From an uncultured Rhodobacteraceae bacterium (GTDB lineage: Bacteria > Pseudomonadota > Alphaproteobacteria > Rhodobacterales > Rhodobacteraceae): a DNA stretch of 64,000 nt. The notes beneath the pieces are model-generated. The model made no database searches and was not told the origin of the DNA. It worked only from the letters and a program-made list of their open reading frames with translations. The translations under genes and the position numbers were made by a program. Shown piece after piece: positions 32,898 through 44,308 of the stretch. The DNA is taken from NCBI GenBank assembly GCA_913062865.1, contig CAJXWO010000001.1, forward strand, positions 39,646 through 103,645, in the 5' to 3' direction. The stretch's first letter is position 1. Each line of letters starts with the position of its first letter.

Positions 32898-33221
32898 TCA
32901 GCTGTCGGGGCTGCTCTTGCCCGGCTTGCGGGGCATGATGTTGATGTCTTGATAGAACGCCTTGACGCGGTAGCCGCGCGACATGAACTTGTCCATGTCC
33001 ACCAGAACCCGTTCAAGCCGCGCTTCGGACATGATGATGTAGATGATTACGCTTGAGTCGCTCATCAGCATCCCGGATTCGAGCCCCGCGGTGCCTGCGC
33101 CCGAGGCCGAGACCACGGTGTAGCCGCCGATCCCACGCTTCTTGAGCTGTTCGATGACCATGCGCTGAAGCTCGCCCGCCGTGATGATGGTCAGAAGCTT
33201 CTTCTGTTCGATTTGTCTCAT
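32898..33221 (-). CDS. sbtB: PII-like signalling protein, SbtB-type
   Basis: 107 aa. The pattern KKLLTIITAGELQRMVIEQLKKRGIGGYTVVSASGAG...IIYIIMSEARLERVL parallels cyanobacterial SbtB (KLVIVTEK...GAKGYTVMNTGGKG...). It sits directly downstream of sbtA. Confidence 0.65.
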   Translation of the reverse strand: MRQIEQKKLLTIITAGELQRMVIEQLKKRGIGGYTVVSASGAGTAGLESGMLMSDSSVIIYIIMSEARLERVLVDMDKFMSRGYRVKAFYQDINIMPRKPGKSSPDS

Positions 33222-33296: not shown

Positions 33297-34322
33297 TCAC
33301 ATACCCCACAGCATCTGTACCATGGCATAGTACAGCGGAATGCCGACGATGATGTTGAACGGAAAGGTCAGCCCCAGCGCCATGGTGAAATAGATCCCGG
33401 GCCGGGCTTCGGGGATGGCATAGCGTGCCACGGCGGGCACCACGATATACGAGGCCGAGGCCGAGAGCACCGCCAACAGCACCGCGTCGCCCACGCCAAG
33501 CCCGATCCAGAAGGCCAGCAGGATCGCGATGGCCGCGTTGACCGGCGGCGAAACGAAGGCGAAGGCAAAAAGCGCCTTGTCGATCTTGGCGCGCCCTTCG
33601 CTCATCTGCTTGCCCACCAGAAGGCCCATCTCGAGCAGGAAGAAGGCGAGCATGCCCTTGAAGATGTCATAGGTGAAGGGCAGCATCTCCGCCGTGCCCT
33701 CGGGGCCCGCGAGATACCCGATCACGAGGCTGCCGATCAGCAACAGCTGCGCGCCGTCGGTCAACGCCTCCTGCAGAACGTCGCGGATCGAGAGTGGTGC
33801 GAAATCGTCGTCCTCCTCGGGCGCGGTGCCGGTCTCGGCCGCCTGTTGCTGCATCGCTTCCTTCGCCCGCACCGCCGTGGCCAGAACAACGGCCATCAGG
33901 ATCGCGGGCGTTTCCATCAGCACCATGGCCACCGTCATATAGCCCCCGAACTCGACGGCGCGGTCGGCCAGGAACTGCTGCGTCGTGATGAAGGTCACGG
34001 CGCTGATCGAGCCGTAGGTCGCGGCGACGGCCGCGCTGTCGAACGGGTTGATCCGACGCGACAGGATATAGAAGGACACCGCCGGGACGAGGGCCGCCAT
34101 GAAGATCGCGGCGATGATCGCATAGATCCCGTCCGCGGGCAGGCCCCCCTCGGCCAGGGCCGATCCGCCCTTGAGGCCAAGCGCGACCAGAAGGTACAGC
34201 GTCAGGAACTTGGCGATCGCCGGCGGGATTTCCAGGTTCGAGCGCAACAGCCCGACACCCGTGCCCAGAACGAAGAACAGAACCGCGGGGTCCAGAAGGT
34301 TCGACAGAGCAGAGCTTAGCAT
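33297..34322 (-). CDS. sbtA: SbtA-family (DUF897) sodium-dependent bicarbonate transporter-like permease
   Basis: 341 aa with about 10 TM segments in two halves separated by an acidic loop (APEEDDDF). C-terminal ASASYIVVPAVARYAIPEARPGIYFTMALGLTFPFNIIVGIPLYY is typical of the family. ATG 34322 overlaps the upstream gene by 7 nt. Confidence 0.7.
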   Translation of the reverse strand: MLSSALSNLLDPAVLFFVLGTGVGLLRSNLEIPPAIAKFLTLYLLVALGLKGGSALAEGGLPADGIYAIIAAIFMAALVPAVSFYILSRRINPFDSAAVAATYGSISAVTFITTQQFLADRAVEFGGYMTVAMVLMETPAILMAVVLATAVRAKEAMQQQAAETGTAPEEDDDFAPLSIRDVLQEALTDGAQLLLIGSLVIGYLAGPEGTAEMLPFTYDIFKGMLAFFLLEMGLLVGKQMSEGRAKIDKALFAFAFVSPPVNAAIAILLAFWIGLGVGDAVLLAVLSASASYIVVPAVARYAIPEARPGIYFTMALGLTFPFNIIVGIPLYYAMVQMLWGM

Positions 34323-35311
34323 GCGCGCCCCCCATAAGCGTTCAAGGAGACCGAAGGTTCGGCCAGGCAGACACCGTAGGCGCCCGTTTCGATGAGCATG
34401 TCCGGGTCCGGGTCCATCCCGTCGGCCAGAACGGGATAAAGCGCGGCGGACGTGGTCCGGGCGATCCGGGCCAGGTTGGCGTGCCAGTCGGGCAGGGCGG
34501 TGCGTGTGGCCGGAAGGGGCAGGAGAACCACGTCGAGCCCCTCCAGCGCGCCGGGCCGGTCCGCAGCGGCCGGGTCGATCACGGCGGCGCGCAGCCCGTC
34601 GCCGCTGAAGGCCGGGCGGGTTTCGGCGCGCCCCCGGGCGAAGACGGGACGGAAATCCCTCCCCAGCCGCGATCCGTGCCAAACCAGGAGCCCACGCGGC
34701 GCCGCAGAGGCGCAGAGCCTGCGGGCCAGGGCCGCCGATTGTGCCATGGTCAGGCGCGGGTCGTGCAAATAGAGCGCGCCCACGCCATCGCGCAGGGCCC
34801 GCGCAACGCAGTCCCGCGCCCAAAGCGCGGGGTCCGCCGCGGGCGGCGTCACAAGGGCCACGCGCATGGGCAGGGCCAGCCGCGCCAGAACCCGCAGGTT
34901 CGACGGCAGGATCGGGCCCACGGCGGGCTGTGCCGGGTCCACCCAGGCAAGCTCGTTGCCCTCAATGCCCGTCGGCAGGCCGGAGCAGGCGGCGGCCTCG
35001 AAGACACTGAGATGGATGCGCCGGGTGGGAAAGTCATGGATATGCCGGATCAGCGGCCGCAGGCCTTGGGCCGACAGGCCGGTTTCCTCGTGAAGTTCGC
35101 GCAGAGCGGCCTGGGCCGCGCTCTCGCCCGGTTCGATCTTGCCGCCGGGAATTTCCCAACAGCCGGGCGAGGATTGGTCGGCCCGGCGCCGCGCCATGAG
35201 CACATGGCCCGCCGGGTTGCGTACCACGCAGGCAGCGACCTCCACCGGCCGCATCGACAACGCACGGGGGGAGGGACGAATGAGGGTTTTCATTCGGTCC
35301 ATGGCCAGCAT
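34316..35311 (-). CDS. Nudix (MutT-like) hydrolase fused to a thiamine-phosphate-synthase/TenI-like domain
   Basis: Nudix box WEIPGGKIEPGESAAQAALRELHEETGL, followed by an alpha/beta region of about 180 aa with the look of a TMP-TenI domain. ATG 35311 overlaps the upstream stop (TGATG); the longest ORF starts at 35323. Confidence 0.7.
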   Translation of the reverse strand: MLAMDRMKTLIRPSPRALSMRPVEVAACVVRNPAGHVLMARRRADQSSPGCWEIPGGKIEPGESAAQAALRELHEETGLSAQGLRPLIRHIHDFPTRRIHLSVFEAAACSGLPTGIEGNELAWVDPAQPAVGPILPSNLRVLARLALPMRVALVTPPAADPALWARDCVARALRDGVGALYLHDPRLTMAQSAALARRLCASAAPRGLLVWHGSRLGRDFRPVFARGRAETRPAFSGDGLRAAVIDPAAADRPGALEGLDVVLLPLPATRTALPDWHANLARIARTTSAALYPVLADGMDPDPDMLIETGAYGVCLAEPSVSLNAYGGRAC

Positions 35312-35526
35312 CAGTCCGGCCACACCCCGTAGGACGGCACGCTGGCAATGGCCGGTTGCGCCGGTGTCTTCTCCGAAGATGTTTTGGTGTGCTGGGCCCG
35401 TGCCCCAGCGGCGGACTCCGCCTGCGGCTTGCGCGCGGGCCGTTGCTTGGACGGGGCGGCGGGCTTGGCCGCCGTGCCCCGCTTGGCGGTGGGGCCGGAT
35501 TTTCCGGTGGCAGATTTCTCGCTCAT
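35311..35526 (-). CDS. Small basic, low-complexity (A/K/P/S-rich) protein ending in WPD; candidate McdB-like carboxysome protein
   Basis: 71 aa. The start overlaps the acRAF stop (ATGA) and the stop overlaps the next ATG (TGATG), so it fills the gap exactly on the operon strand. Composition suggests intrinsic disorder. The C terminus is SVPSYGVWPD. Confidence 0.55.
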   Translation of the reverse strand: MSEKSATGKSGPTAKRGTAAKPAAPSKQRPARKPQAESAAGARAQHTKTSSEKTPAQPAIASVPSYGVWPD

Positions 35527-35831
35527 GGTCCGAACTCTCCGAAAAGGGCGTCCGCCCGTGCCGCGAAGGCGCGCTGCGCCTTGTCAGCCGCGCCGTCCGC
35601 GCCGTCCTCGGAGGGGACGGTCACGTTGGCGTGGGTCTTGGCGAAACTGAGATCGGGATGGATGCCGGTCTCTTCTGACAGGTTTGCCAGGGCCTCGAGA
35701 AAGGCGCTGGTTTGGGCATAGGAGTCGAATTCGAAGCGCCTATGGATCGCCGCGCTCCCTGCGACCTGTTTCCAGGGCTCCGGCAGATCCGGGCCGGGTG
35801 TCGAAGCCGTGTTGTCTTGGTTCTTGGTCAT
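35523..35831 (-). CDS. Pterin-4a-carbinolamine dehydratase-like protein (acRAF-type alpha-carboxysome RuBisCO assembly factor)
   Basis: PCD/DCoH-like core: RRFEFDSYAQTSAFLEALANLSEETGIHPDLSFAKTHANVTV. The canonical HHP is replaced by IHP, consistent with the non-catalytic carboxysomal subgroup. It occupies the position after the shell genes. Confidence 0.7.
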   Translation of the reverse strand: MTKNQDNTASTPGPDLPEPWKQVAGSAAIHRRFEFDSYAQTSAFLEALANLSEETGIHPDLSFAKTHANVTVPSEDGADGAADKAQRAFAARADALFGEFGP

Positions 35832-35917: not shown

Positions 35918-36217
35918 TCAGGGCGTCGCCGTGGTGGGCAGGACGTTTTCCACCTCGCCGTGGGGACGGGCGATGATATGCGCCGCGGCCAGGCCGTCGC
36001 CCACGCGTTCGCACGCATCGGCACCCGCACGCACGGCGGCGTTGACGGCACCGGTTTCGCCCCGGACCATGACGGTCACGTAGCCCCCGCCGACGAACTG
36101 CCGCGCGATCAGGCGAACCTCCGACGCCTTGGTCATGGCGTCGGCCGCCTCGATGGCCGGGACCAACCCGCGGGTTTCGATCATTCCGAGGGCGATGCCC
36201 ACTTTTTCACTCGCCAT
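35918..36217 (-). CDS. csoS1: Carboxysome shell hexamer protein CsoS1 (BMC-H, Pfam00936)
   Basis: ALGMIETRGLVPAIEAADAMTKASEVRLI...GGGYVTVMVRGETGAVNAAVRAG...AHIIARPH, the canonical BMC domain. Confidence 0.95.
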   Translation of the reverse strand: MASEKVGIALGMIETRGLVPAIEAADAMTKASEVRLIARQFVGGGYVTVMVRGETGAVNAAVRAGADACERVGDGLAAAHIIARPHGEVENVLPTTATP

Positions 36218-36288
36218 GGTGTTCTCCTTTCTGGCTAAGTATTCTCTCGTTCATCGCGCCACCCGGACCGTCCAGGTGCCGCAAACTC

Positions 36289-36567
36289 TCAGGGACTGGC
36301 CCGCAACGGGCCGTGCCATTTATCTTCGGTCCAATCGTCGATGATGCCGCCGATGGTCAGGTCGGTCATCACGCGGGGATCGCCTGTGGCGATCCGGGCG
36401 GACGAGTAGGCGATGGTGATGACGAAATCGCCTTCCCGGGCGCCGACCGCGTCGACCGCGACCTCGACATTGCCCTTGGCATCCTCGAGCACCCGCAGTT
36501 TCCGGGCCTGAAGTCCGGCCACCCGCTGGGTGGTCACGAGATCACGGACGACACGCATGATGTTCAT
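36289..36567 (-). CDS. csoS4B: Carboxysome vertex pentamer protein CsoS4B (BMC-P, EutN/CcmL family)
   Basis: 92 aa: MNIMRVVRDLVTTQRVAGL...AVDAVGAREGDFV... The ATGA overlaps csoS4A. Confidence 0.85.
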   Translation of the reverse strand: MNIMRVVRDLVTTQRVAGLQARKLRVLEDAKGNVEVAVDAVGAREGDFVITIAYSSARIATGDPRVMTDLTIGGIIDDWTEDKWHGPLRASP

Positions 36568-36833
36568 GTCGCCACCTCGCCGGGCTCGTCCGCATCCCAG
36601 TAGTCGATAATGCCCACGATGGTCAGGTCCGAGGGGTATTTGGAGCTGCCCGCGGCATCCTTGGCCGCCGAACTGCCCACGGCAATGACCCAGTCGCCCT
36701 TTTTGCACCCGATGGGGTCCACGGCCACCGACCGGCTGCCGCTTTTCTCGCGCAGGACCAAAAGACGGTTGTTCTCGAGCTGGGTAATCCGCGCTGTGGC
36801 CACCAGGGTGCCCTCGACTTGAAAGATCTTCAT
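36564..36833 (-). CDS. csoS4A: Carboxysome vertex pentamer protein CsoS4A (BMC-P)
   Basis: 89 aa: MKIFQVEGTLVATARI...LLVLRE...AVDPIGCKKGDWVIAV. The ATGA overlaps csoS3. Confidence 0.85.
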   Translation of the reverse strand: MKIFQVEGTLVATARITQLENNRLLVLREKSGSRSVAVDPIGCKKGDWVIAVGSSAAKDAAGSSKYPSDLTIVGIIDYWDADEPGEVAT

Positions 36834-38329
36834 TGTTCGGCCTCCAGAAACTCGAGCGCGCCGCCGGTGCCGGGCCGCAGCGCGGCCTCCACCTCGAGCG
36901 CGGTGTCCGGTCTCATCGCCAGGACCGCCGCGCGCATGCGCCGGGCGACCTCGGCGGCCGCCGCATCGTCGCCGGGGATGTCCGGATCGTAGCTGCGCAG
37001 GACGAGCACCGGGACGGTGTGCATCCGCGCGCCCAGAATATGCAGCCCGACCCTGAGATCGGCGGCGCCTTCCTCGACGGAATTCATCTGGGCCTGAAAG
37101 GCCAGGTTGCGCAGCTGCACGTCATCCACCGGATCGCCGATCACGATCAGCTTTTCTGCATGGCCGGCCTCGATATAGGGGCCGGCAAATTTTTGCAGCA
37201 CCGCGTCGACCTGGGCGATGTTGTTCTTGAGAAGGTAGCCGCAGAACCAGCGCATCCCCTCGGTTGCGGTATCATCGGGATGCACGCCTGCGGCGCGGGC
37301 CACCTCGGTGCGCACGGCCTCCTTGGCCGCGTCGCGCGGCTTGTCCAGCGTCATGCGGTAAAGATCGGCGGCATCGACAAAACGGTCCGGGTCCATCCGG
37401 CCCGCTGCATCGGGGACATGGACGCGGATCGCATCCGTGTCGGTGTCGAGCCCGATCAGCAGAAGCGCGATCTCGTCGCCCGCGCCGTGCATGGCCTGGG
37501 CCGCGGCCTGAAACTCGATCAGGCGCTCGTGCAGGGCGGTGATGGCGCGGCTGTTGCAGCTGCCATGAGCTGCGCAGCCGGCGTGGGACGGGTCGACGCT
37601 CGAAAAATGGTAGACACCCACCTTGAGGTAACGCGTGCCCGCATCGGGCCTGTTGGGCCGGCCTTCACGGTGGCGGGTCAGCTCGACCTCTTCCCATTCG
37701 TGCAGGTTCTGCGCCACGTTGAACATCGCGCCTGCAAAGGACTTGCGCGCGGTCACGATCGACAGCGGGATCCGCAGCACCGCGCCCAGAAGGCCCGCAA
37801 GTCGACCGTCCGCGCAGGGCGTGATGTCGACCGCGTGAAAGCCCCAGCGCCGGATCAGCACATCCACGGGCTCACCATCGTCCGAGGCATAGCGATCCCG
37901 CTCGGTGCCGCTTTTGACCAGGGTGGCGAACAGACGGCAGGCCGCGCGGGCATGAAGCGCGCCCATGTTCAGCGGGGTCGTCCAGTCGGCTTCGAACCAG
38001 GCTGGATCGGTATCGAAACCGATGGCGGCCAGCCGTGCGGCGGCTTGGTCCGGAAAGCCTGCGTCGAACTGCTGGGGGGCAAGGCCGCGCAGCGTCTCGG
38101 ACAAGGTGGCAAAGCCGGTCTCGACCTCTGCCTCGCGGCGGTCGAGATCGCGCGCGATCTCGGGCTCGGCAAAGGGGTGGCGCCGTCCACCGGCCCGCAG
38201 ACCGGGTGCCGGGGCCGCCTGCGCCATCGCCGGTGCCATCGCAGGGCCGGGGCGCTGAGCGTAGGCGGGCGTCACTCGGTTGCCGCGCCAGGCCTTGTTC
38301 GGCCCGGAAGTGGTACGAAGCGCCGACAT
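36830..38329 (-). CDS. csoS3: Carboxysome shell carbonic anhydrase CsoSCA (CsoS3)
   Basis: 499 aa in the canonical position after csoS2. It has a CxDxR motif (TPCADGRL) and a later His/Cys pair (HFSSVDPSHAGCAAHGS), consistent with the beta-CA-like zinc site of CsoSCA. Confidence 0.85.
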   Translation of the reverse strand: MSALRTTSGPNKAWRGNRVTPAYAQRPGPAMAPAMAQAAPAPGLRAGGRRHPFAEPEIARDLDRREAEVETGFATLSETLRGLAPQQFDAGFPDQAAARLAAIGFDTDPAWFEADWTTPLNMGALHARAACRLFATLVKSGTERDRYASDDGEPVDVLIRRWGFHAVDITPCADGRLAGLLGAVLRIPLSIVTARKSFAGAMFNVAQNLHEWEEVELTRHREGRPNRPDAGTRYLKVGVYHFSSVDPSHAGCAAHGSCNSRAITALHERLIEFQAAAQAMHGAGDEIALLLIGLDTDTDAIRVHVPDAAGRMDPDRFVDAADLYRMTLDKPRDAAKEAVRTEVARAAGVHPDDTATEGMRWFCGYLLKNNIAQVDAVLQKFAGPYIEAGHAEKLIVIGDPVDDVQLRNLAFQAQMNSVEEGAADLRVGLHILGARMHTVPVLVLRSYDPDIPGDDAAAAEVARRMRAAVLAMRPDTALEVEAALRPGTGGALEFLEAEQ

Positions 38330-40416
38330 CAGCCCGCCGCCCCGCCGGAAACGGTGACCTTGGCGCAGCTGTCGGGCGTGCCGCCGGTCGCGCCGGTGAC
38401 CGGGCTCACGGGATCATTCGTGGGCGCTTTGGATTTGAACGGTTTGGCGCCTGCGAAGGCCTGAGCGCTGCCCGCCCGCTGGGACGGGTTGCGGTTCGTC
38501 GCGATATAGCCCTCGGTGCCGGTGACAGAGCTGTTTTCGCTCCAGCCCGAGCCGGTGATGGCGGCCCCGCGGGTCGCGCCTTCGCCGGTGATGTTGCCAT
38601 GGGCTGGACGCTGGCAGGGCTGACCGCCACGGCTGGGGGCCTGGAACTCGACATTGCCGGTGATCTTGCCGTCGCCCTGGGCGAAGGTGCCGGTGATGGC
38701 GGATGCGCCGCCCGGCTTGGCTGCCTCGGGGGCGGCTTCGCGGGCCCGGACATGGGAGGCGCGCTGGGGCGAGGAGACCGAGAACCCGGCGATCGACTGG
38801 GTCACGGGATCCTGTGCCCCGGCGTCGGGCTGGGTTTCGCCCTGCACGAAGTAGGCAGAGCCGGTGATGGCGCGGTCGGCACCCCGTCCGGTGCCGGACA
38901 CGGTGGGATCGTTCAGCGGCACGTCGCCGGTGATGGCGCGGGGGGCGCGCGGCGCGCGGCGGGCCGCCTCGGCCTCGGCCTGGGCAGGGTCGCACCAGTC
39001 CTGGGCCCCGGTGGCGCCATAGTAGGGCGTCCCGGTCATCGCCGCGCAGGTGCCGTGCTCCGAGCCGGTCACGCGGCCGTCATGTTCCATCATCGGGCCC
39101 GAGACCGTCTGGCCGCCCCAGGTCTGCGACAGGGTCACCTTGGCGCCGGTGGCGGGGTCAGAGCGTCCGTCAGCCGGGGCCGGGTCCATTTCGTCGCGGG
39201 CAGGGGCCAGGTATTGCGAGCCCGTAAGGCTGCGCGCGGCACCACCCTCGTCGCCGGTCACCCGGACCGAACGACCGATGGCGGTGCCCGAGACGGCGTG
39301 CCCGCTCAGCGTCTGTTCCACGGGGCGTTCCGTGTCCCGGCTGCGCGATCCCACGGCCCGGGCCGAACGGCCCAGATTGCTGCCAAACACCGACTGGCCA
39401 TGGGGCTGGGACTGGCGTTGGAACTGGGCACCGACGGCGACATAGCTGTCGGGGCGTGCGTCGAGATCGTCGGCCACGGTCTGATCCGCATTACCGGTGA
39501 TCCGCACATCGGCGCTGTCCTCGTCGCCGGTGATGCGCACGGTCGAGCGGACCATGGTGCCCGAGACGGTGAGGCCTGCATTGGTGCGGGCATGGCCGAC
39601 CTTGCCCATGGAGGCGCGGTAGCCGCCCTCGGCGCCGCCCACGTACTGGGTGCCGGTCAGGGGCTTGTCATAGCCCGCCTCGGCCCCGGTCATGGCGCGG
39701 CCTGCGGCATAGCTGAGCCCGGTCACGGTTGCGTTCGACACGGCGGTGGTGACGCTGGGCACCTTGGGCGGATGGGTGAGCTCGCCCCGGCGCGGGGACC
39801 GGGCGGGTTGAGCGGCCGCGGGTGCGGGTGCCCCGGACGCGGCTGGGGCAAGCTGTGAGCTGGGCACATCGGCGGGCATGGCTGCCTCGCGAAAGCCCGA
39901 GCGGACCCGCTCCTGCGCGGGCGGCAGGCCGCCCTTGCCCGCGGACAGCGCCTTGCGTCGGGCGATGGAGGCCTCGCGGCCCGACCCGAAAGCGGCCGAT
40001 GCGGCGGGTGCCGGAGTTGCAGGGGTGGCGGCCGCGACGTGCGGTGTGGCGGTGTCGGTATCGTTCGGCATGGCGGCCTCCCGGAAGCCTGAGCGCACGC
40101 GCTCCTTGGCCGGCGGCAATCCCCCCTTACCGGCCGACAGCGCCTTGCGGCGGGCGACGGACGCCTCGCGACCGCTGGGCACATGAACGGGGGGCAGGGG
40201 GGCGCTGACGGGCGCGGATGGGGCGGTGTCCGGCTCGTGCGCCGCCATCGGGGCGGGGGCGGCCGGCGTGTCGGTGGGCATCGCTGCGTCGCGGAAGCCC
40301 GAGCGAACCCGCTCCGATGCGGCGGGCAGACCCGCCTTTCCCTGGGACAGCGCCCGGCGCCGCGCCATCGAGGCCGCGCGTCCGGACATCCCTTGAAAAT
40401 TCGCATCAGTGCTCAT
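38329..40416 (-). CDS. csoS2: Carboxysome scaffold protein CsoS2
   Basis: 695 aa, repetitive and likely disordered. Three N-terminal repeats of the form GRxAS(M/V/I)ARR(R/K)ALSxGKxGLP(A/P)AxERVRSGFR(D/E)AAMP. The middle and C-terminal regions are full of (V/I/L)(T/S)G triplets. It lies between cbbS and csoS3. Confidence 0.9.
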   Translation of the reverse strand: MSTDANFQGMSGRAASMARRRALSQGKAGLPAASERVRSGFRDAAMPTDTPAAPAPMAAHEPDTAPSAPVSAPLPPVHVPSGREASVARRKALSAGKGGLPPAKERVRSGFREAAMPNDTDTATPHVAAATPATPAPAASAAFGSGREASIARRKALSAGKGGLPPAQERVRSGFREAAMPADVPSSQLAPAASGAPAPAAAQPARSPRRGELTHPPKVPSVTTAVSNATVTGLSYAAGRAMTGAEAGYDKPLTGTQYVGGAEGGYRASMGKVGHARTNAGLTVSGTMVRSTVRITGDEDSADVRITGNADQTVADDLDARPDSYVAVGAQFQRQSQPHGQSVFGSNLGRSARAVGSRSRDTERPVEQTLSGHAVSGTAIGRSVRVTGDEGGAARSLTGSQYLAPARDEMDPAPADGRSDPATGAKVTLSQTWGGQTVSGPMMEHDGRVTGSEHGTCAAMTGTPYYGATGAQDWCDPAQAEAEAARRAPRAPRAITGDVPLNDPTVSGTGRGADRAITGSAYFVQGETQPDAGAQDPVTQSIAGFSVSSPQRASHVRAREAAPEAAKPGGASAITGTFAQGDGKITGNVEFQAPSRGGQPCQRPAHGNITGEGATRGAAITGSGWSENSSVTGTEGYIATNRNPSQRAGSAQAFAGAKPFKSKAPTNDPVSPVTGATGGTPDSCAKVTVSGGAAG
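39874..40383 (-). repeat. Three tandem coding repeats (108 nt each, separated by P/A-rich linkers) encoding the CsoS2 N-peptides
   Basis: Repeats at 40276-40383, 40066-40173 and 39874-39981. Copies 2 and 3 differ at only 3 of 36 residues. Confidence 0.85.
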
Positions 40417-40484
40417 GGTTTATCCCGTTTTTCTGGGTCAGGCGGCTGGCAGAGCAGCGGCGCGGTGCGGCGTGCGGCGGCGGA

Positions 40485-40814
40485 TCAGGCGCGGTGGACG
40501 ACGAAGGCCATGCCCTGCGACTGGGCGTAGTTGTCATAGGCGATCAGGCGCACATGCATGCCCGGGTTGGCACGACGGCAGGCCTCGATCTCGGTCAGGA
40601 CCTCTTCGACCGACTGGGTGCCGAAAAGCGGCAGCTTCCACAGGTACCAGAAGTTCGAGAACGCTTTTTCCGGTTCGGTATATTCGACCGCCGGGTTCCA
40701 CCCGCGCGCGATGCAATAGGCGATCTGCTGGGCGATGCGTTCCGGCGTCATGGGCGGCAGGTACGAGAAGGTCTCGGTCCGGGGCTGTGTGGCGGGATAG
40801 GCGGCTTGGGACAT
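40485..40814 (-). CDS. cbbS: RuBisCO small subunit, form IA
   Basis: 109 aa: [10 protein letters not shown]...[16 protein letters not shown]...[11 protein letters not shown]...VRLIAYDN. Confidence 0.95.
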
Positions 40815-40852
40815 GGGTCTCTCCGTAAATCTCTGGGCAGCGGGCGATGGGA

Positions 40853-42271
40853 TCAGCGCTGAACGTCAAGCTTGTCGACAGTGTCGAAGTCGAACTTGAT
40901 TTCCTTCCAGGTCTCCATGGCGATCGCCAGTTCCGGGCTGTGCTTGGCGGCGTCGGTGAGGATGGCGCGGCCTTCCTTTTCGACGGCGCGGCCCTGGTTG
41001 CGGGCCTCGGTACAGGCTTCGAGCGCCACGCGGTTGGCATGGGCCCCTGCCGCGTTGCCCCAGGGGTGACCCAGCGTGCCGCCGCCGAACTGCAGGCAGG
41101 CGTCATCGCCGAAGATCTGCACCAGCGCTGGCATGTGCCAGACATGGATGCCGCCCGAAGCGACGGGCATCACGCCCGGCATCGCGCCCCAGTCCTGGTC
41201 GAAGAACAGGCCGCGCACGCGGTTTTCCGGCACGAAGTGTTCGCGCATGAGGTCGACCCAGCCCAGCGTGGCCTCGCGGTCGCCCTCGAGCTTGCCCACG
41301 ACTGTGCCCGAGTGCAGGTGGTCGCCGCCCGACAGGCGCAGACACTTGGTCAGCACGCGGAAATGGATGCCGTGCATCGGGTTGCGGTCGACCACGGCGT
41401 GCATCGCGCGGTGGATGTGCAGCAGCATCCCGTTTTCGCGACACCAGTTGGCGAGGCCCGTGTTGGCCGTGAAGCCCGCTGTGAAGAAGTCGTGCATGAT
41501 GATCGGCGCGCCAAGCTCCTTGGCGAATTCGGCGCGCTTGTACATCTCTTCCGGGGTGGCGGCGGTGACGTTCAGGTAGTGGCCCTTGCGTTCGCCGGTC
41601 TCGGCCTCGGCCTTCTGGACGGCTTCCATGACGAACTCGAACCGGTGCTGCCAGCGCATGAAGGGCTGCGAGTTGATGTTCTCGTCATCCTTGGTGAAGT
41701 CGAGACCGCCGCGAAGACATTCATAAACGGCGCGGCCGTAGTTCTTCGCAGACAGGCCCAGTTTGGGCTTGATGGTACAGCCCAGAAGCGCGCGGCCATA
41801 CTTGTTCAGCCGGTCGCGCTCGACCTGGATGCCGTTGGGCGGGCCGCCGCAGGTCTTCACATAGGCCATGGGAAAGCGGATGTCCTCGAGCCGCAGCGAG
41901 CGCACGGCCTTGAAGCCGAAGACGTTGCCGACGAGCGAGGTCAGAACGTTCACGACCGAGCCTTCTTCGAACAGGTCGATCGGATAGGCGATGAAGGCGT
42001 AGAAAGCGGTGTTGTCGCCTGGGACCGCTTCGATCCGGTAGGCGCGTCCCTTGTAGTATTCGAGGTCTGTCAGAAGGTCGGTCCAGACGGTGGTCCAGGT
42101 GCCCGTCGAGCTTTCGGCGGCCACGGCGGCCGCTGCTTCCTCGAAAGGCACGCCCTCCTGGGGGACAACCTTGAACACCGCCAACAGGTCCGAGTCGAGC
42201 GGGATATAATCGGGGGTCCAATACGTCTTGGCGTAATCCTTGACGCCGGCTTGGTACGTTTTCTGAGCCAC
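40853..42271 (-). CDS. cbbL: RuBisCO large subunit, form IA (GTG start)
   Basis: 472 aa: [67 protein letters not shown] and [12 protein letters not shown]. An AGGAG RBS lies 7 nt upstream of the GTG. Confidence 0.97.
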
Positions 42272-42388: not shown

Positions 42389-43279
42389 ATGGAATGTATG
42401 AGGGTCGAACTACGCCAACTCGAGATGCTGGATGCCGTTGCGCGGCACGGGTCCGTGACCCAGGCGGCGGGGGCGCTGGGGGTCACCCAACCGGCAATTT
42501 CCATTCAAATGCGGAAACTTGAAGATGTCGTGGGCCTTCCCGTCTTCGAGAAGGTCGGCCGCACGATCCAGCTGACCGAGGCCGGGCAGGAGGTGCTCAG
42601 CCACGCCCAGCGGGTGCGCCGTGTGCTCGACGATCTGGAAGAAAGCATTCACCACTACAAGGGTGTCAGCCGCGGCAGCCTGCGAATCGCGGTCGTGTCC
42701 ACGGCGAATTATTTCATCACCGAAGACATCGCGCGGTTCCGCAGGGCCCACCCGGATGTAGAGATCAATCTCAAGGTCGCCAACCGCGACCGCATCCTTG
42801 CCATGCTCGAGGCGAACGAGGTCGATCTGGCCATCACCGGGCAGCCGCCCGAGGACTCAGACCTCGTCGCACGGCCCTTCAAGGACAACCCGCTGGTCAT
42901 TATCGCACCCACGGATCACCCCCTGGTGGGCAGCCGGATCAGTGATCCGTCAGACCTTGCGCGGTTTCCTTTCGTCGTGCGCGAACCGGGCTCGGGAACG
43001 CGGGCCGCGATGGAGCGGATCTTTGGTGAACACGGGGTCGAGGTGAAGATTTCCTGCGTCCTGTCCTCGAACGAGGCGGTCAAGCAGGCGGTGCAGGCCG
43101 GGCTGGGGCTGGCCATGATCTCGCGCCAGACCACGGATCTCGAGATCGAGACAGGGCGGCTGGCCTGCCTGGTCAGCCATGTCTTTGCCATGGAGCGGAA
43201 GTGGTATGTCGTCTACCGCAATTTCCGCCGGATGCCGCCCGCCGCGTCCAAGTTCCGCAGTCAGCTCCTGAAGGCCTAG
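42389..43279 (+). CDS. cbbR: Second LysR-family regulator of CbbR type, divergent from the carboxysome operon
   Basis: HTH: LRQLEMLDAVARHGSVTQAAGALGVTQPAISIQMRKLEDVVG. 296 aa. An alternative ATG lies at 42398. Confidence 0.8.
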   Translation: MECMRVELRQLEMLDAVARHGSVTQAAGALGVTQPAISIQMRKLEDVVGLPVFEKVGRTIQLTEAGQEVLSHAQRVRRVLDDLEESIHHYKGVSRGSLRIAVVSTANYFITEDIARFRRAHPDVEINLKVANRDRILAMLEANEVDLAITGQPPEDSDLVARPFKDNPLVIIAPTDHPLVGSRISDPSDLARFPFVVREPGSGTRAAMERIFGEHGVEVKISCVLSSNEAVKQAVQAGLGLAMISRQTTDLEIETGRLACLVSHVFAMERKWYVVYRNFRRMPPAASKFRSQLLKA

Positions 43280-43497
43280 GCCGGCGCGGTCTGGCCCAGG
43301 CGTTGCGCCGCGTCGAGCGCGAGCGGCGACAGGCCGGTGCCACCCTCTGCGACAATTGCATCCAGTTCGGCCCGCATGCGCGGGTCCCAGAAATCGCGCA
43401 GATGCGCGGCCACGGCGCCGGGCTTGTCTGCGATGGGCTGGGTCTCGAAGAACCCGGCGATCTGGTTGGCCATGCGGATCAGCTTGTCATGCGACAT
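43276..43497 (-). CDS. fdsD: Formate dehydrogenase delta subunit
   Basis: 73 aa, MSHDKLIRMANQIAGFFE...HLRDFWDPRM, the typical FdsD family sequence. Last gene of the fds operon. Confidence 0.85.
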   Translation of the reverse strand: MSHDKLIRMANQIAGFFETQPIADKPGAVAAHLRDFWDPRMRAELDAIVAEGGTGLSPLALDAAQRLGQTAPA

Positions 43498-44308
43498 CGT
43501 GGGCTCCGGTCTCGATACGAGAGGGGTGGGCGTAAAGGTCGAACGCGCCCTTGCGGGCGAAGGCGGCGATGGTGATGCCGGCTGCCTGGGCTATCTCGAC
43601 CGCGCGGGCGGTCGGGGCCGAGACGGCGATCAGAACGGGGATGCCCGCCAGCGCGCATTTCTGAACGAGTTCGACACTGACGCGGCTGGTCATGACCACG
43701 GCGCCGGTGCCGGGATCTTCGCGCGATGCGGCCAGAGCGCCGATCAGCTTGTCCAGCGCATTGTGCCGCCCCACGTCCTCGCGCACGGCTACAAGCGTGC
43801 CGTCGGGCCGCAGGAAGCCTGCCGCATGGGCGGCATGGGTCCTGTCATGAAGCTGCTGATGCGCGCGCAACTGGTCGGGTGCCGAGGCGATCACGTCGCG
43901 GTTCCATCGCAGGTCCGGCGCGGCGACACGAGGCAGGGGGCGGATAGCTTGCTGCAGGCTGTCGATGCCGCACAGGCCACAACCCACCGGACCGGCCATG
44001 GCGCGGCGCCGTTCGGCCATCGCAGCGGCCCGCTCCGGGGACAGCCACATGCGCGCCTCGATGCCCTGGAGCTGTTCGACGATCTCGATCTCGCCCAACT
44101 GGGCCGGGTCCGACACGATCCCCTCGCTCAGGGAAAAGCCGCGCGCGAAATCCTCAAGGTCCGCCGGCGTGGCCATCATCACCGCCTGGGTCGCGCCATT
44201 GTAGACCAGCGCCACGGGCACCTCGTCGGGCAGCGCCCGGGTGATCCCGCGCGCCCCGTCCCCCCGGCTGGAGACACCGGGCACCGAGATATGCGCCCGC
44301 TTGGTCAT
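43487..44308 (-). CDS. fdhD: Formate dehydrogenase accessory sulfurtransferase FdhD (FdsC)
   Basis: 273 aa. Contains GCGLCG (the conserved cysteine loop), EDVGRHNALDKLIG and MTSRVSVELVQK. Confidence 0.9.
   Translation of the reverse strand: MTKRAHISVPGVSSRGDGARGITRALPDEVPVALVYNGATQAVMMATPADLEDFARGFSLSEGIVSDPAQLGEIEIVEQLQGIEARMWLSPERAAAMAERRRAMAGPVGCGLCGIDSLQQAIRPLPRVAAPDLRWNRDVIASAPDQLRAHQQLHDRTHAAHAAGFLRPDGTLVAVREDVGRHNALDKLIGALAASREDPGTGAVVMTSRVSVELVQKCALAGIPVLIAVSAPTARAVEIAQAAGITIAAFARKGAFDLYAHPSRIETGAHDVA

What the first reader, a model, noticed from the sequence alone, without database searches (positions are those of the whole stretch)
35311..35526. Orphan McdB-like disordered protein (C-terminal WPD) with no McdA partner nearby
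A 71-aa ORF fits exactly between acRAF and the Nudix gene. Its start overlaps the acRAF stop (ATGA) and its stop overlaps the next ATG (TGATG), which argues it is translated. It is basic, A/K/P/S/T-rich low complexity and ends in ...SYGVWPD. As I recall the literature on the McdAB system in alpha-carboxysome proteobacteria, McdB proteins are intrinsically disordered, sit near acRAF/csoS1D, and share an invariant C-terminal tryptophan (WPD-type ending). Those McdB proteins are paired with a ParA-type McdA. I saw no ParA/Walker-A ATPase anywhere in this 64 kb window. This may be a minimal or orphan carboxysome-positioning adaptor, or a new disordered carboxysome component.
Basis: partly seen in the sequence, partly recalled or inferred. 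Interest (0 to 1): 0.75.

Follow-up and report, generated by a model that had tools for sequence, protein, structure and literature searches.

The report
Orphan McdB-type carboxysome adaptor gene
This small gene at the end of a carboxysome operon is real, and it encodes a floppy 71-residue protein of the known McdB family, which attaches carbon-fixing organelles to the cell's positioning machinery; versions without the partner ATPase gene next door were already described in 2021, so this is a new member of a known kind.

Summary
A 71-codon ORF lies on the minus strand at 35311-35526, between acRAF and a Nudix gene. Its start overlaps the acRAF stop (ATGA) and its stop overlaps the Nudix start (TGATG). 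The protein is basic (pI 10.5), 66% A/P/K/S/T, and ends in SYGVWPD.

It is a real gene. GC3 matches its neighbours and a GGAGAG ribosome-binding site lies 8 nt upstream. A small ORF ending in [V/I]WPD sits at the same position in 26 of 44 related cso loci. Against the closest relative, dN/dS is 0.07 for the last 19 codons and about 1-1.5 in the other two frames.

It fits the published definition of alpha-McdB: small, disordered, A/P/K/S/T-biased, invariant C-terminal WPD. It is of the "orphan" kind, in a cso operon without mcdA, described by MacCready et al. 2021.

No ParA-type gene occurs in the 64-kb window or in about 10 kb fetched beyond each end. Whether mcdA lies elsewhere in the genome could not be tested.

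Two features set this Rhodobacteraceae-like subgroup apart. The N-terminal McdA-binding motif is absent (-4.1 bits against 34-47 for McdA-linked McdBs). Only VWPD remains of the usual LHPxR[V/I]WPD ending.

It most likely docks on the carboxysome shell through the VWPD end. What its basic tail binds is unresolved. Interest is modest.

The parts
35311..35526 (-). mcdB-like gene (ORF71): 71 aa plus stop, orphan alpha-McdB type
   Evidence: ORF and translation; called as a gene in NCBI, JGI and ENA assemblies; GC3 0.81, composition; positional counterparts in 26 of 44 related loci; dN/dS 0.44 overall, against about 1.0 and 1.55 in the other two frames.
35314..35370 (-). Conserved C-terminal block, residues 53-71 (KTPAQPAIASVPSYGVWPD). 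It ends in the VWPD-COOH motif and is the inferred carboxysome-shell docking peptide.
   Evidence: dN/dS 0.07 against contig L047. W69, P70 and D71 are the only invariant columns across 13 McdBs. In H. neapolitanus the last 10 aa are sufficient for carboxysome association and the tryptophan is required (PMC11321042). Docking by ORF71 itself is inferred, not shown.
35419..35526 (-). Basic, Gly/Pro-rich N-terminal region, residues 1-36 (9 K+R, 1 D+E). It is the effector end; its partner is unknown.
   Evidence: charge; no hydrophobic residue and 4 G/P in residues 2-20; -4.1 bits against an HMM of the N-termini of McdA-adjacent McdBs, which themselves score 34-47 bits. AF2 predicts no helix; dN/dS 0.58.
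35535..35540 (-). GGAGAG Shine-Dalgarno-like site, 8 nt upstream of the ORF71 ATG, inside the end of acRAF
   Evidence: Read directly from the sequence. The same sequence is present in the relative L047.
35523..35831 (-). acRAF (Pterin_4a-like Rubisco assembly factor). Its stop overlaps the ORF71 start (ATGA).
   Evidence: Pfam PF01329, E=4e-8. The same overlap with the WPD ORF occurs in 13 of 14 alphaproteobacterial orphan loci.
34316..35311 (-). Nudix-family gene (331 aa). Its ATG overlaps the ORF71 stop (TGATG), so it is translationally coupled as the downstream neighbour.
   Evidence: Pfam NUDIX, E=4e-21; NCBIfam PRK08999, 147 bits, below its cutoff; conserved downstream in most related cso loci.
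35918..42271 (-). Core cso operon upstream: cbbL 40853-42271, cbbS 40485-40814, csoS2 38329-40416, csoSCA 36830-38329, csoS4A 36564-36833, csoS4B 36289-36567, csoS1 35918-36217
   Evidence: Pfam hits and public gene calls with Pfam. The junctions csoS2/csoSCA, csoSCA/csoS4A and csoS4A/csoS4B also overlap by 1-4 nt.

Best explanation
ORF71 is a real, translated gene for an intrinsically disordered carboxysome adaptor of the alpha-McdB kind, in the published 'orphan' arrangement: mcdB in the cso operon with no adjacent mcdA.

Shown here:
- It is translationally coupled to acRAF and Nudix within the cso operon.
- It occupies the position that mcdB holds in acRAF-mcdA-mcdB operons.
- It has the family's size, composition, lack of fold and invariant WPD C-terminus.
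- Selection acts almost only on the last 19 residues.

Inferred from experiments on H. neapolitanus McdB:
- The C-terminal ...SYGVWPD-COOH peptide docks the protein on the outside of the alpha-carboxysome shell.
- The rest projects as a disordered, N-terminally basic tail.

Inferred with much less certainty: the tail helps keep carboxysomes dispersed and inherited. My split is as follows.
- About 0.4: the basic N-terminal patch engages a ParA-type ATPase encoded elsewhere in the genome. This could be a distant mcdA, possibly next to a second, Type-1 mcdB.
- About 0.35: it acts without any McdA.

Either way it lacks the canonical helical McdA-binding motif, so it is unlikely to be a standard McdA activator itself.
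For: 1. Real gene. GC3, ribosome-binding site and 4-nt/1-nt overlaps; called in public assemblies. The closest relative, GOS contig L047, keeps exactly 71 codons and the same ATGA and TGATG overlaps. dN/dS against it is 0.44 overall and 0.07 for codons 53-71, against 0.98 and 1.55 in the shifted frames.

2. Positional homology. A small ORF ending in [V/I]WPD-stop lies just after acRAF in 26 of 44 cso loci. In nine gammaproteobacterial loci it follows a 212-aa ParA with KGGVGKTT; there the junctions show acRAF-ATGA-mcdA-ATGA-mcdB in L024. In 14 alphaproteobacterial loci it follows acRAF directly, and its start overlaps the acRAF stop in 13 of them.

3. Family features. 71 aa, 66% APKST, GRAVY -0.97. 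AF2 gives no secondary structure and pTM 0.13. WPD are the only invariant columns, as published (PMC11321042).

4. Function of the motif. [quoted passage not shown]

5. Orphans are a described class (PMC8359340). An annotated complete-plasmid example is Thiodictyon pTs417, with acRAF followed by an 84-aa ...ERVWPD protein, then LysR, BMC and NUDIX, and no parA in the stretch.

6. A basic patch (3-7 K+R in residues 2-20) is present in all seven Rhodobacteraceae-type sequences. Basic N-termini are the general hallmark of ParA/MinD partner proteins (PMC12139897).
Against: - No sequence-level homology to any other McdB can be demonstrated. An exhaustive HMMER search of 1.84 billion representatives found only itself and one relative, and Pfam and NCBIfam have no model. 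Membership therefore rests on a 4-residue motif, composition and synteny.
- The published consensus is R(V/I)WPD. Here the residue at -5 is Gly, and the extended LHPxR motif seen in the other groups is missing: 2.8 bits against 25-32 bits on a 12-aa C-terminal HMM.
- The N-terminal motif of McdA-linked McdBs is absent (-4.1 bits, no hydrophobic residues, 4 G/P). In H. neapolitanus the N-terminal 20-residue helix (K7, L4, L8, I12) is what binds McdA.
- No binding, localisation or expression data exist for this protein.
- The rest of the genome could not be searched for mcdA.
Confidence: 0.75

Rival explanations
1. McdA-independent, one-component role. The VWPD end binds the shell. The disordered basic tail then either tethers carboxysomes directly to nucleoid DNA by electrostatics (as PhaM/PhaF do for PHB granules, from my own knowledge) or forms a charged or condensate-like coat that prevents carboxysome aggregation. 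No dedicated ATPase is involved.
For: - No ParA-type gene in about 83 kb around the gene, nor in any of the 14 alphaproteobacterial orphan loci of about 20 kb each.
- The canonical McdA-binding N-terminal motif is absent.
- The sequence of the N-terminal and middle parts evolves nearly neutrally (dN/dS 0.58-0.70) while composition is kept, as expected if bulk charge and disorder matter rather than a specific interface.
- About 9% of surveyed genomes had no McdA.
- All McdB types phase-separate in vitro.
Against: - H. neapolitanus McdB alone does not bind DNA, and deleting residues 2-20 phenocopies the full deletion. A shell-bound tail alone is therefore not enough in that organism.
- Net charge is not conserved in the subgroup: +8 here, but -1 to +1 in L003, L005, L002 and L017.
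- 76% of the 'McdA-less' genomes in the survey were incomplete.
- Ten loci with an intact acRAF region, mostly alphaproteobacterial, have no McdB-like ORF at all in the stretch fetched. The protein therefore seems dispensable for the carboxysome itself in those lineages.
Confidence: 0.35
2. ORF71 is the 'Type 2' paralogue of arrangement (iii). A distant locus in the same genome encodes mcdA plus a Type-1 mcdB that does the positioning. ORF71 has a separate, still unknown accessory role on the shell.
For: - Published precedent: 12% of genomes carry an orphan in the cso operon plus mcdA-mcdB elsewhere, and the orphans lack the conserved N-terminus.
- ORF71 lacks the Type-1 N-terminal motif.
- The Thiodictyon pTs417 orphan has a similar build.
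Against: - Published Type 2 orphans are said to lack a charged N-terminus. ORF71 and all its near relatives keep a basic N-terminal patch.
- No second WPD ORF or ParA was found in any sequence available here.
- The published two-mcdB clade is described for gammaproteobacteria such as Thiohalospira.
Confidence: 0.3
3. It is a disordered carboxysome component unrelated to McdB, for example an internal scaffold or encapsulation peptide. In that case the WPD ending would be convergent or coincidental.
For: - No profile-level homology to McdBs.
- Only four residues are shared with canonical McdBs.
Against: - It sits at the exact syntenic position of mcdB.
- There is a graded series of forms: gamma McdBs next to McdA with LHPxRIWPD; Acetobacteraceae orphans with LHPxR[V/I]WPD; and Rhodobacteraceae-type orphans with xVWPD.
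- The chance expectation for [V/I]WPD-stop is about 0.01 per window (my estimate), yet it recurs at this position in 26 loci.
Confidence: 0.05
4. It is a spurious ORF in GC-rich intergenic DNA.
For: - Long chance ORFs are very common in this DNA.
- The protein is low-complexity.
Against: - There is no intergenic space: 4-nt and 1-nt overlaps on both sides.
- Frame-specific purifying selection.
- Conserved start-stop coupling in 13 of 14 alphaproteobacterial loci.
- GC3 and a ribosome-binding site.
Confidence: 0.02

Closest known systems
Orphan ('Type 2' / arrangement ii-iii) alpha-McdB of proteobacterial cso operons (MacCready, Tran et al. 2021, PMC8359340). An example read here is Thiodictyon syntrophicum pTs417 WP_100922726.1 (84 aa, ...ERVWPD).
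   Same: - Small, disordered protein encoded inside the cso operon just after acRAF, with no adjacent mcdA.
- Ends in VWPD.
- Lacks the N-terminal motif of McdA-linked McdBs.
   Different: - ORF71 and its six near relatives keep a basic N-terminal patch, whereas published Type 2 proteins are described as lacking the charged N-terminus.
- The residue before VWPD is Gly/Ala/Ser, not Arg.
- The lineage is alphaproteobacterial and Rhodobacteraceae-like (closest CsoSCA: Brevirhabdus pacifica, 79%).
- Whether a second mcdB and a mcdA exist elsewhere is unknown.
Halothiobacillus neapolitanus McdB (Type 1 alpha-McdB), and the McdA-adjacent McdBs of loci L019-L035, L046 and Nitrobacter hamburgensis WP_011504805.1
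   Same: - Same size class (67-89 aa in the loci read here).
- Monomeric-type disordered build with no coiled coil.
- A/P/K/S/T bias and WPD at the extreme C-terminus.
- Same operon position relative to acRAF.
   Different: - Not preceded by mcdA.
- Lacks the amphipathic N-terminal motif (consensus MSKKIGSKLAESLRQRR here; K7/L4/L8/I12 in Hn) that binds McdA.
- Lacks the LHPxR part of the C-terminal motif.
Beta-McdB of cyanobacteria (e.g. Synechococcus elongatus PCC 7942)
   Same: - Carboxysome adaptor with an invariant C-terminal tryptophan.
- Basic N-terminus and partial disorder.
- Orphan beta-McdBs also exist.
   Different: - Beta-McdBs are 132-394 aa.
- They have a central coiled coil and Gln-rich stretches, and form dimers or hexamers.
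- They have no WPD triplet.
PhaM/PhaF-type granule-to-nucleoid tethers. This is a functional analogy only, from my own knowledge.
   Same: A cargo-binding end plus a Lys/Ala/Pro-rich basic tail. Such a tail could bind DNA and spread an organelle-like inclusion over the nucleoid without a dedicated ATPase.
   Different: - No sequence relation.
- DNA binding by ORF71 is untested.
- Hn McdB does not bind DNA on its own.

Membership tests
alpha-McdB (carboxysome positioning adaptor) | Invariant WPD at the extreme C-terminus, preceded by V or I | tested here: met
   The protein ends ...SYGVWPD-stop. W69, P70 and D71 are the only invariant columns in a 13-sequence alignment that includes McdA-adjacent McdBs. 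The definition comes from PMC8359340 and PMC11321042.
alpha-McdB (carboxysome positioning adaptor) | Consensus Arg before the motif (R(V/I)WPD), and the extended LHPxR[V/I]WPD seen in most members read here | tested here: not met
   ORF71 has G at -5. It scores 2.8 bits on a 12-aa C-terminal HMM, against 25-32 bits for McdA-adjacent McdBs. All seven Rhodobacteraceae-type sequences have G/A/S at that position. This is a consensus feature, not an invariant one.
alpha-McdB (carboxysome positioning adaptor) | Small size (51-169 aa), low hydrophobicity, A/P/K/S/T-biased composition | tested here: met
   71 aa; GRAVY -0.97; A/P/K/S/T 66%; 8% hydrophobic residues.
alpha-McdB (carboxysome positioning adaptor) | Near-complete intrinsic disorder, no coiled coil | tested here: met
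   AF2 gives no DSSP secondary structure, pTM 0.13 and mean pLDDT 66, though with only a 2-sequence alignment. On the charge-hydropathy plot, mean normalised hydropathy is 0.39 against a boundary of 0.45 at net charge 0.11, which is the disordered side (computed by me). No dedicated disorder predictor was available.
alpha-McdB (carboxysome positioning adaptor) | Encoded in or next to the cso operon, at the acRAF-(mcdA)-mcdB position | tested here: met
   ORF71 holds the same slot as mcdB in 26 related loci, in Nitrobacter plasmid 1 and in Thiodictyon pTs417.
alpha-McdB Type 1 | Immediately downstream of mcdA (ParA with a deviant Walker A) | tested here: not met
   No ParA-type gene in the window or in about 10 kb on either side.
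alpha-McdB Type 1 | Conserved charged N-terminal motif / predicted helix that binds McdA (first 20 residues; K7 plus hydrophobic residues in Hn) | tested here: not met
   -4.1 bits against an HMM of McdA-adjacent N-termini, which score 34-47 bits. Residues 2-20 hold no I/L/V/M/F and 4 G/P. AF2 predicts no helix. The region is nevertheless basic: 4 K+R in residues 2-20 and 9 in residues 1-36.
alpha-McdB Type 2 (orphan) | Orphaned in the cso operon and lacking the charged N-terminus, with a second mcdB next to mcdA at a distant locus | tested here: inconclusive
   Orphaned in the operon: yes. Lacks the Type-1 motif: yes. But the N-terminus is still positively charged.
alpha-McdB (carboxysome positioning adaptor) | Binds carboxysomes through the C-terminal Trp motif, interacts with McdA, and phase-separates | not testable with these tools
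   These are experimental properties, known only for H. neapolitanus McdB.
alpha-McdB (carboxysome positioning adaptor) | Detectable sequence homology to other members | tested here: not met
   A profile search of 1.84 billion representatives returned only itself and P0002, and there is no Pfam or NCBIfam model. The family as published has about 15% mean identity and is not defined by a profile, so this failure is expected and does not exclude membership.

The most novel reading that the evidence does not exclude
In this Rhodobacteraceae-like clade the McdB has been stripped to a minimal form. It has lost both the adjacent mcdA and the helical McdA-binding N-terminus, and it keeps only xVWPD of the shell-binding motif. 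It would then work as a one-component system. The VWPD end sits on the shell and the basic Gly/Pro-rich N-terminal patch binds the nucleoid, or another non-dedicated ParA such as the chromosomal one, directly. Carboxysomes would be distributed without a dedicated ATPase.
Probability: 0.2. Interest if true: 0.6.

Novelty: new member of a known kind. Interest (0 to 1): 0.3.

Why it matters
Carboxysome positioning by McdAB is a model for how bacteria organise protein organelles. What the 'orphan' McdBs do is an acknowledged open point: I found no follow-up on them after the 2021 paper.

This locus adds an alphaproteobacterial, Rhodobacteraceae-like subgroup of orphans. Two cultured relatives carry the same gene, Brevirhabdus pacifica DSM 27767 and Roseivivax sediminis. 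In this subgroup the two functional ends of the protein have diverged differently. The shell-binding end is reduced to xVWPD but is under strong selection. The McdA-binding motif is gone, but a basic patch is kept.

That makes the subgroup a convenient natural 'minimal McdB' for two questions: whether the VWPD tetrapeptide is sufficient for shell binding, and whether positioning can work without a dedicated ATPase. For annotation, these genes are currently unnamed or called 'hypothetical protein'. They could be recognised by the simple rule used here: a small ORF that follows acRAF directly, or follows a mcdA placed after acRAF, and ends in [V/I]WPD.

Tried and rejected
1. Looking for a sequence family. 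The word-indexed search and the exhaustive HMMER profile search found only the protein itself and one relative, a GOS marine contig (52% identity, also 71 aa). A 1215-aa repeat protein hit at E=5e-4 is a low-complexity artefact. Pfam and NCBIfam gave nothing.

2. A metagenome scan with the two-sequence profile found only that same GOS contig.

3. Trying to find mcdA in the same genome. A profile of six cso-linked McdAs was searched against 5.8 billion proteins. It returned 4317 hits, of which only the best 120 are listed, and none carried the window genome's source fingerprint. Two candidates on long or marine contigs were followed up: P0121 and P0111. Both lie in other samples, inside ordinary acRAF-mcdA-mcdB operons. 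This route cannot answer the question.

4. Extending the window by 10 kb at each end showed no ParA-type gene, but this covers only about 83 kb of the genome.

5. Plasmid search for cso loci. Only Nitrobacter hamburgensis plasmid 1 (with parA plus a 70-aa ...DRIWPD protein) and Thiodictyon pTs417 (orphan) were found. They are useful as annotated references but are not relatives.

6. A recurring 'RKP' tripeptide in the basic region of 4 of 6 independent Rhodobacteraceae-type sequences looked like a motif. However, 36% of composition-preserving shuffles reach the same level of sharing for some tripeptide, so I rejected it.

7. The antisense ORFs on the plus strand (35139..35678 and others). The largest, 35139..35678, reads in a frame with GC3 0.69 and GC2 0.82, and the only plus-strand frame with high GC3 (0.82) has a stop inside the region. 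I rejected them as non-coding.

8. Organism name. Cluster look-ups gave no names. Taxonomy is inferred only from cso-gene similarity.
Full report
**1. The observation**

The finding's coordinates delimit an ATG-started 71-codon ORF on the minus strand, 35311..35526. It encodes MSEKSATGKSGPTAKRGTAAKPAAPSKQRPARKPQAESAAGARAQHTKTSSEKTPAQPAIASVPSYGVWPD.

The gene upstream on that strand, 35523..35831, is a Pterin_4a-type protein, that is acRAF (Pfam E=4e-8). The gene downstream, 34316..35311, has a Nudix domain (E=4e-21). The ORF's ATG overlaps the acRAF TGA (ATGA), and its TGA overlaps the Nudix ATG (TGATG). Public assemblies call the three genes with exactly these boundaries.

The ORF closes an alpha-carboxysome operon on the minus strand: cbbL, cbbS, csoS2, csoSCA, csoS4A, csoS4B, csoS1, acRAF, ORF71, Nudix. 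An Sbt_1-family transporter, a P-II protein and Calvin-cycle genes follow.

The protein is basic (12 K+R, 4 D+E, pI 10.5), 66% A/P/K/S/T, and has GRAVY -0.97.

No ParA-type P-loop exists in any frame of the 64-kb window. tblastn with nine McdA proteins finds nothing in it. About 10 kb fetched beyond each end holds no ParA-family gene either.

**2. Is it a gene?**

ORF length alone is worthless in 66% GC DNA. Several independent lines say it is translated.

- GC3 is 0.81, like its neighbours at 0.77-0.86. The overlapping antisense ORF 35139..35678 reads in a frame with GC3 0.69 and GC2 0.82, which is not coding-like.
- GGAGAG lies 8 nt upstream of the ATG.
- There is no intergenic space on either side.
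- The closest relative is a 3.2-kb marine GOS contig, L047. Its CsoSCA, CsoS4A, CsoS4B, CsoS1, acRAF and Nudix are 89, 98, 97, 100, 77 and 84% identical to the window's. It keeps a 71-codon ORF with the same ATGA and TGATG overlaps, at only 52% protein identity.
- Nei-Gojobori dN/dS for that pair is 0.44 overall, 0.58 for codons 1-36, 0.70 for codons 37-52 and 0.07 for codons 53-71. The same DNA read in the other two frames gives 0.98 and 1.55.

Selection is therefore frame-specific and concentrated on the C-terminal 19 residues.

**3. Related loci**

A scan of one genome per species, using the window's CsoSCA, returned 44 cso loci. The nearest are Brevirhabdus pacifica (79%), a Salibaculum MAG (74%), a MAG labelled Sphingomonadaceae (73%) and Roseivivax sediminis (64%). 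The window is thus from a Rhodobacteraceae-like alphaproteobacterium whose own genome is not among the species representatives.

Six-frame scanning found a small ORF ending in [V/I]WPD-stop just downstream of acRAF in 26 of the 44 loci. There were only three off-position matches to the looser scan pattern W[PA][DE]-stop: two among the 44 loci and one...WWPE, elsewhere in the window.

- In nine gammaproteobacterial loci the ORF directly follows a 212-aa ParA with KGGVGKTT, that is McdA. In L024 the junctions are acRAF-ATGA-mcdA-ATGA-mcdB.
- The same acRAF-parA-small ORF order is annotated on Nitrobacter hamburgensis plasmid 1. There the 70-aa 'hypothetical protein' ends DRIWPD. It also occurs in two metagenomic loci.
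- In 14 alphaproteobacterial loci there is no ParA in the roughly 20 kb fetched. The WPD ORF follows acRAF directly, and its start overlaps the acRAF stop in 13 of the 14.
- Three beta/gamma loci (two Pelomicrobium and one gammaproteobacterial MAG) also lack McdA in the locus.

ORF71 is therefore the positional counterpart of mcdB in an operon from which mcdA is absent.

**4. Comparison with the published family**

MacCready, Tran et al. 2021 (PMC8359340) define alpha-McdBs by the following:
- a conserved charged N-terminus;
- an invariant C-terminal tryptophan, with all sequences ending V(I)WPD;
- low hydrophobicity;
- A/P/K/S/T bias;
- about 95% disorder.

They also describe 'orphaned' McdBs in cso operons. 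These occur either alone (about 9% of genomes had no McdA, and 76% of those genomes were incomplete) or together with a distant mcdA plus a second mcdB (12% of genomes). Orphans that lack the charged N-terminus are called Type 2.

Basalla et al. 2024 (PMC11321042) show that WPD are the only invariant residues and that the consensus is R(V/I)WPD. They also show that the tryptophan is required for carboxysome association of H. neapolitanus McdB and that its last 10 residues are sufficient.

A 2025 preprint (PMC12139897) shows that the first 20 residues of Hn McdB are necessary and sufficient to bind McdA. These residues form a predicted helix with K7 and hydrophobic L4, L8 and I12. The same preprint shows that McdB alone does not bind DNA.

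**5. How ORF71 measures up**

Features that are met:
- Size, composition, hydrophobicity and the WPD ending.
- Lack of fold. AF2 gives no secondary structure and pTM 0.13, and the charge-hydropathy position is on the disordered side.
- Position in the operon.

Features that are not met:
- Adjacency to mcdA.
- The N-terminal motif. An HMM of the first 22 residues of ten McdA-adjacent McdBs (consensus about MSKKIGSKLAESLRQRR) scores those proteins at 34-47 bits. ORF71 scores -4.1 bits, and residues 2-20 contain no I/L/V/M/F and four G/P.
- The extended C-terminal motif. A 12-residue HMM (LHPxRIWPD type) scores 25-32 bits on McdA-adjacent McdBs and about 10-22 bits on most Acetobacteraceae-type orphans. 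It scores only 2.8 bits on ORF71, which shares just VWPD.

The seven Rhodobacteraceae-type sequences are the window, the GOS contig, and L002, L003, L004, L005 and L017. They form a subgroup ending [Y/F/L]-[G/A/S]-VWPD, and all keep a basic patch (3-7 K+R in residues 2-20).

There is thus a graded series from canonical McdA-linked McdBs, through orphans with a full C-terminal motif, to this minimal form. That series, with the synteny, supports common descent even though no profile method can demonstrate homology. In an alignment of 13 McdBs of all groups only W69, P70 and D71 are invariant, which matches the published picture.

**6. Mechanism**

Shown: the gene is part of the cso transcription and translation unit and is under selection mainly on its C-terminal block.

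Inferred from the H. neapolitanus experiments: the ...SYGVWPD-COOH end docks on the alpha-carboxysome shell, and the rest is a disordered tail.

What the tail does is open, and I split the possibilities as follows.
- About 0.4: the basic N-terminal patch contacts a ParA-type ATPase encoded elsewhere. Basic N-termini are the common currency of ParA/MinD partners. Most orphan-bearing genomes in the 2021 survey did have a distant mcdA.
- About 0.35: it acts without McdA, as a direct nucleoid tether or an anti-aggregation coat.
- The remainder covers other roles.

Some evidence argues against a pure coat or tether. Hn McdB lacking residues 2-20 behaves like a full deletion. Hn McdB does not bind DNA. 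Net charge is not conserved in the subgroup, ranging from +8 to -1.

Some evidence argues against a canonical McdA activator: the helix motif is missing.

The question that would decide between these, whether the genome has a mcdA at all, could not be answered with the tools available.

**7. Novelty and verdict**

However, orphan alpha-McdBs inside cso operons are a published category, so this is a new member of a known kind and not a new component.

The modest new points are these.
- The alphaproteobacterial, Rhodobacteraceae-like subgroup.
- Reduction of the shell motif to xVWPD, with Arg at -5 lost.
- Loss of the McdA-binding motif with retention of a basic patch.
- The evolutionary rate pattern: the C-terminus is strongly constrained while the rest is nearly free.

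I found no follow-up work on orphan McdB function after 2021, so their role remains an open question that this subgroup could help address. Two relatives are cultured isolates. Interest: 0.3.

Noticed in passing
window 34316-35311 (-); also L003, L004, L005, L007-L010, L012, L014-L019, L021, L022, L024, L025, L027, L028, L031, L034, L035, L038, L039, L042, L044, L046, L047, L053: A Nudix-family gene is a conserved member of these cso loci in both alpha- and gammaproteobacteria (35-49% identity by tblastn; 84% in L047). In alphaproteobacteria it directly follows mcdB or acRAF. In gammaproteobacteria it follows a LysR gene. In L046 the product also carries a TMP-TENI domain. In the window the 331-aa protein has an unassigned C-terminal half. 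I do not know what it does in a carboxysome context.
   Followed up: partly
L006, L007, L009, L012, L015, L016, L021, L036, L038, L039: Ten loci have an intact csoS1-acRAF region but no [V/I]WPD ORF, no other McdB-like ORF and no ParA within the stretch fetched. They include a complete Geminicoccaceae genome, two Bradyrhizobium and a Bauldia MAG. In seven of them acRAF is followed by Nudix after at most about 110 bp. This sits oddly with the published statement that 100% of alpha-carboxysome proteobacterial genomes have a McdB, unless the gene lies elsewhere in those genomes.
   Followed up: partly
L018 13376-13579, L028 13911-14117, L026 14131-14343: Two Pelomicrobium loci and one gammaproteobacterial MAG carry a McdB with the full LHPxR[V/I]WPD ending. 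In L028 the N-terminus still resembles the McdA-binding type (14 bits). Yet no McdA or remnant of one is in the locus. L028 has an unexplained gap of about 540 bp between acRAF and mcdB.
   Followed up: no
window 35311-35526 compared with L047 2244-2459: ORF71 is by far the fastest-evolving gene of the operon: 52% identity, against 77-100% for its neighbours in the same genome pair. Its apparent dS (0.81) is also about three times that of csoS1, csoS4A and csoS4B (0.23-0.28). The middle third may not be truly alignable, or codon-level constraint may be weaker.
   Followed up: partly
window 33297-34322 (-) and 32898-33221 (-): An Sbt_1-family (PF05982) putative bicarbonate transporter and a P-II protein follow the Nudix gene, with a 7-nt overlap between Nudix and the transporter. 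The pair also follows the operon in L003, L017 and L032, and lies upstream in several beta/gamma loci. It is probably the inorganic-carbon uptake arm of the same CO2-concentrating module.
   Followed up: no
L046 1-2400; L048-L050 (marine Tara contigs): In these metagenomic cso operons the gene calls go from csoS2 straight to the two EutN/CsoS4 genes, with no csoSCA (carbonic anhydrase) gene between them. They nevertheless keep acRAF-mcdA-mcdB.
   Followed up: no
window 42398-47214: A divergently transcribed LysR/CbbR gene lies directly beside cbbL. Beyond it is a formate dehydrogenase cluster: an FdsA-like 966-aa subunit, FdhD and FdsD. This suggests formate-driven autotrophy in this organism.
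   Followed up: no
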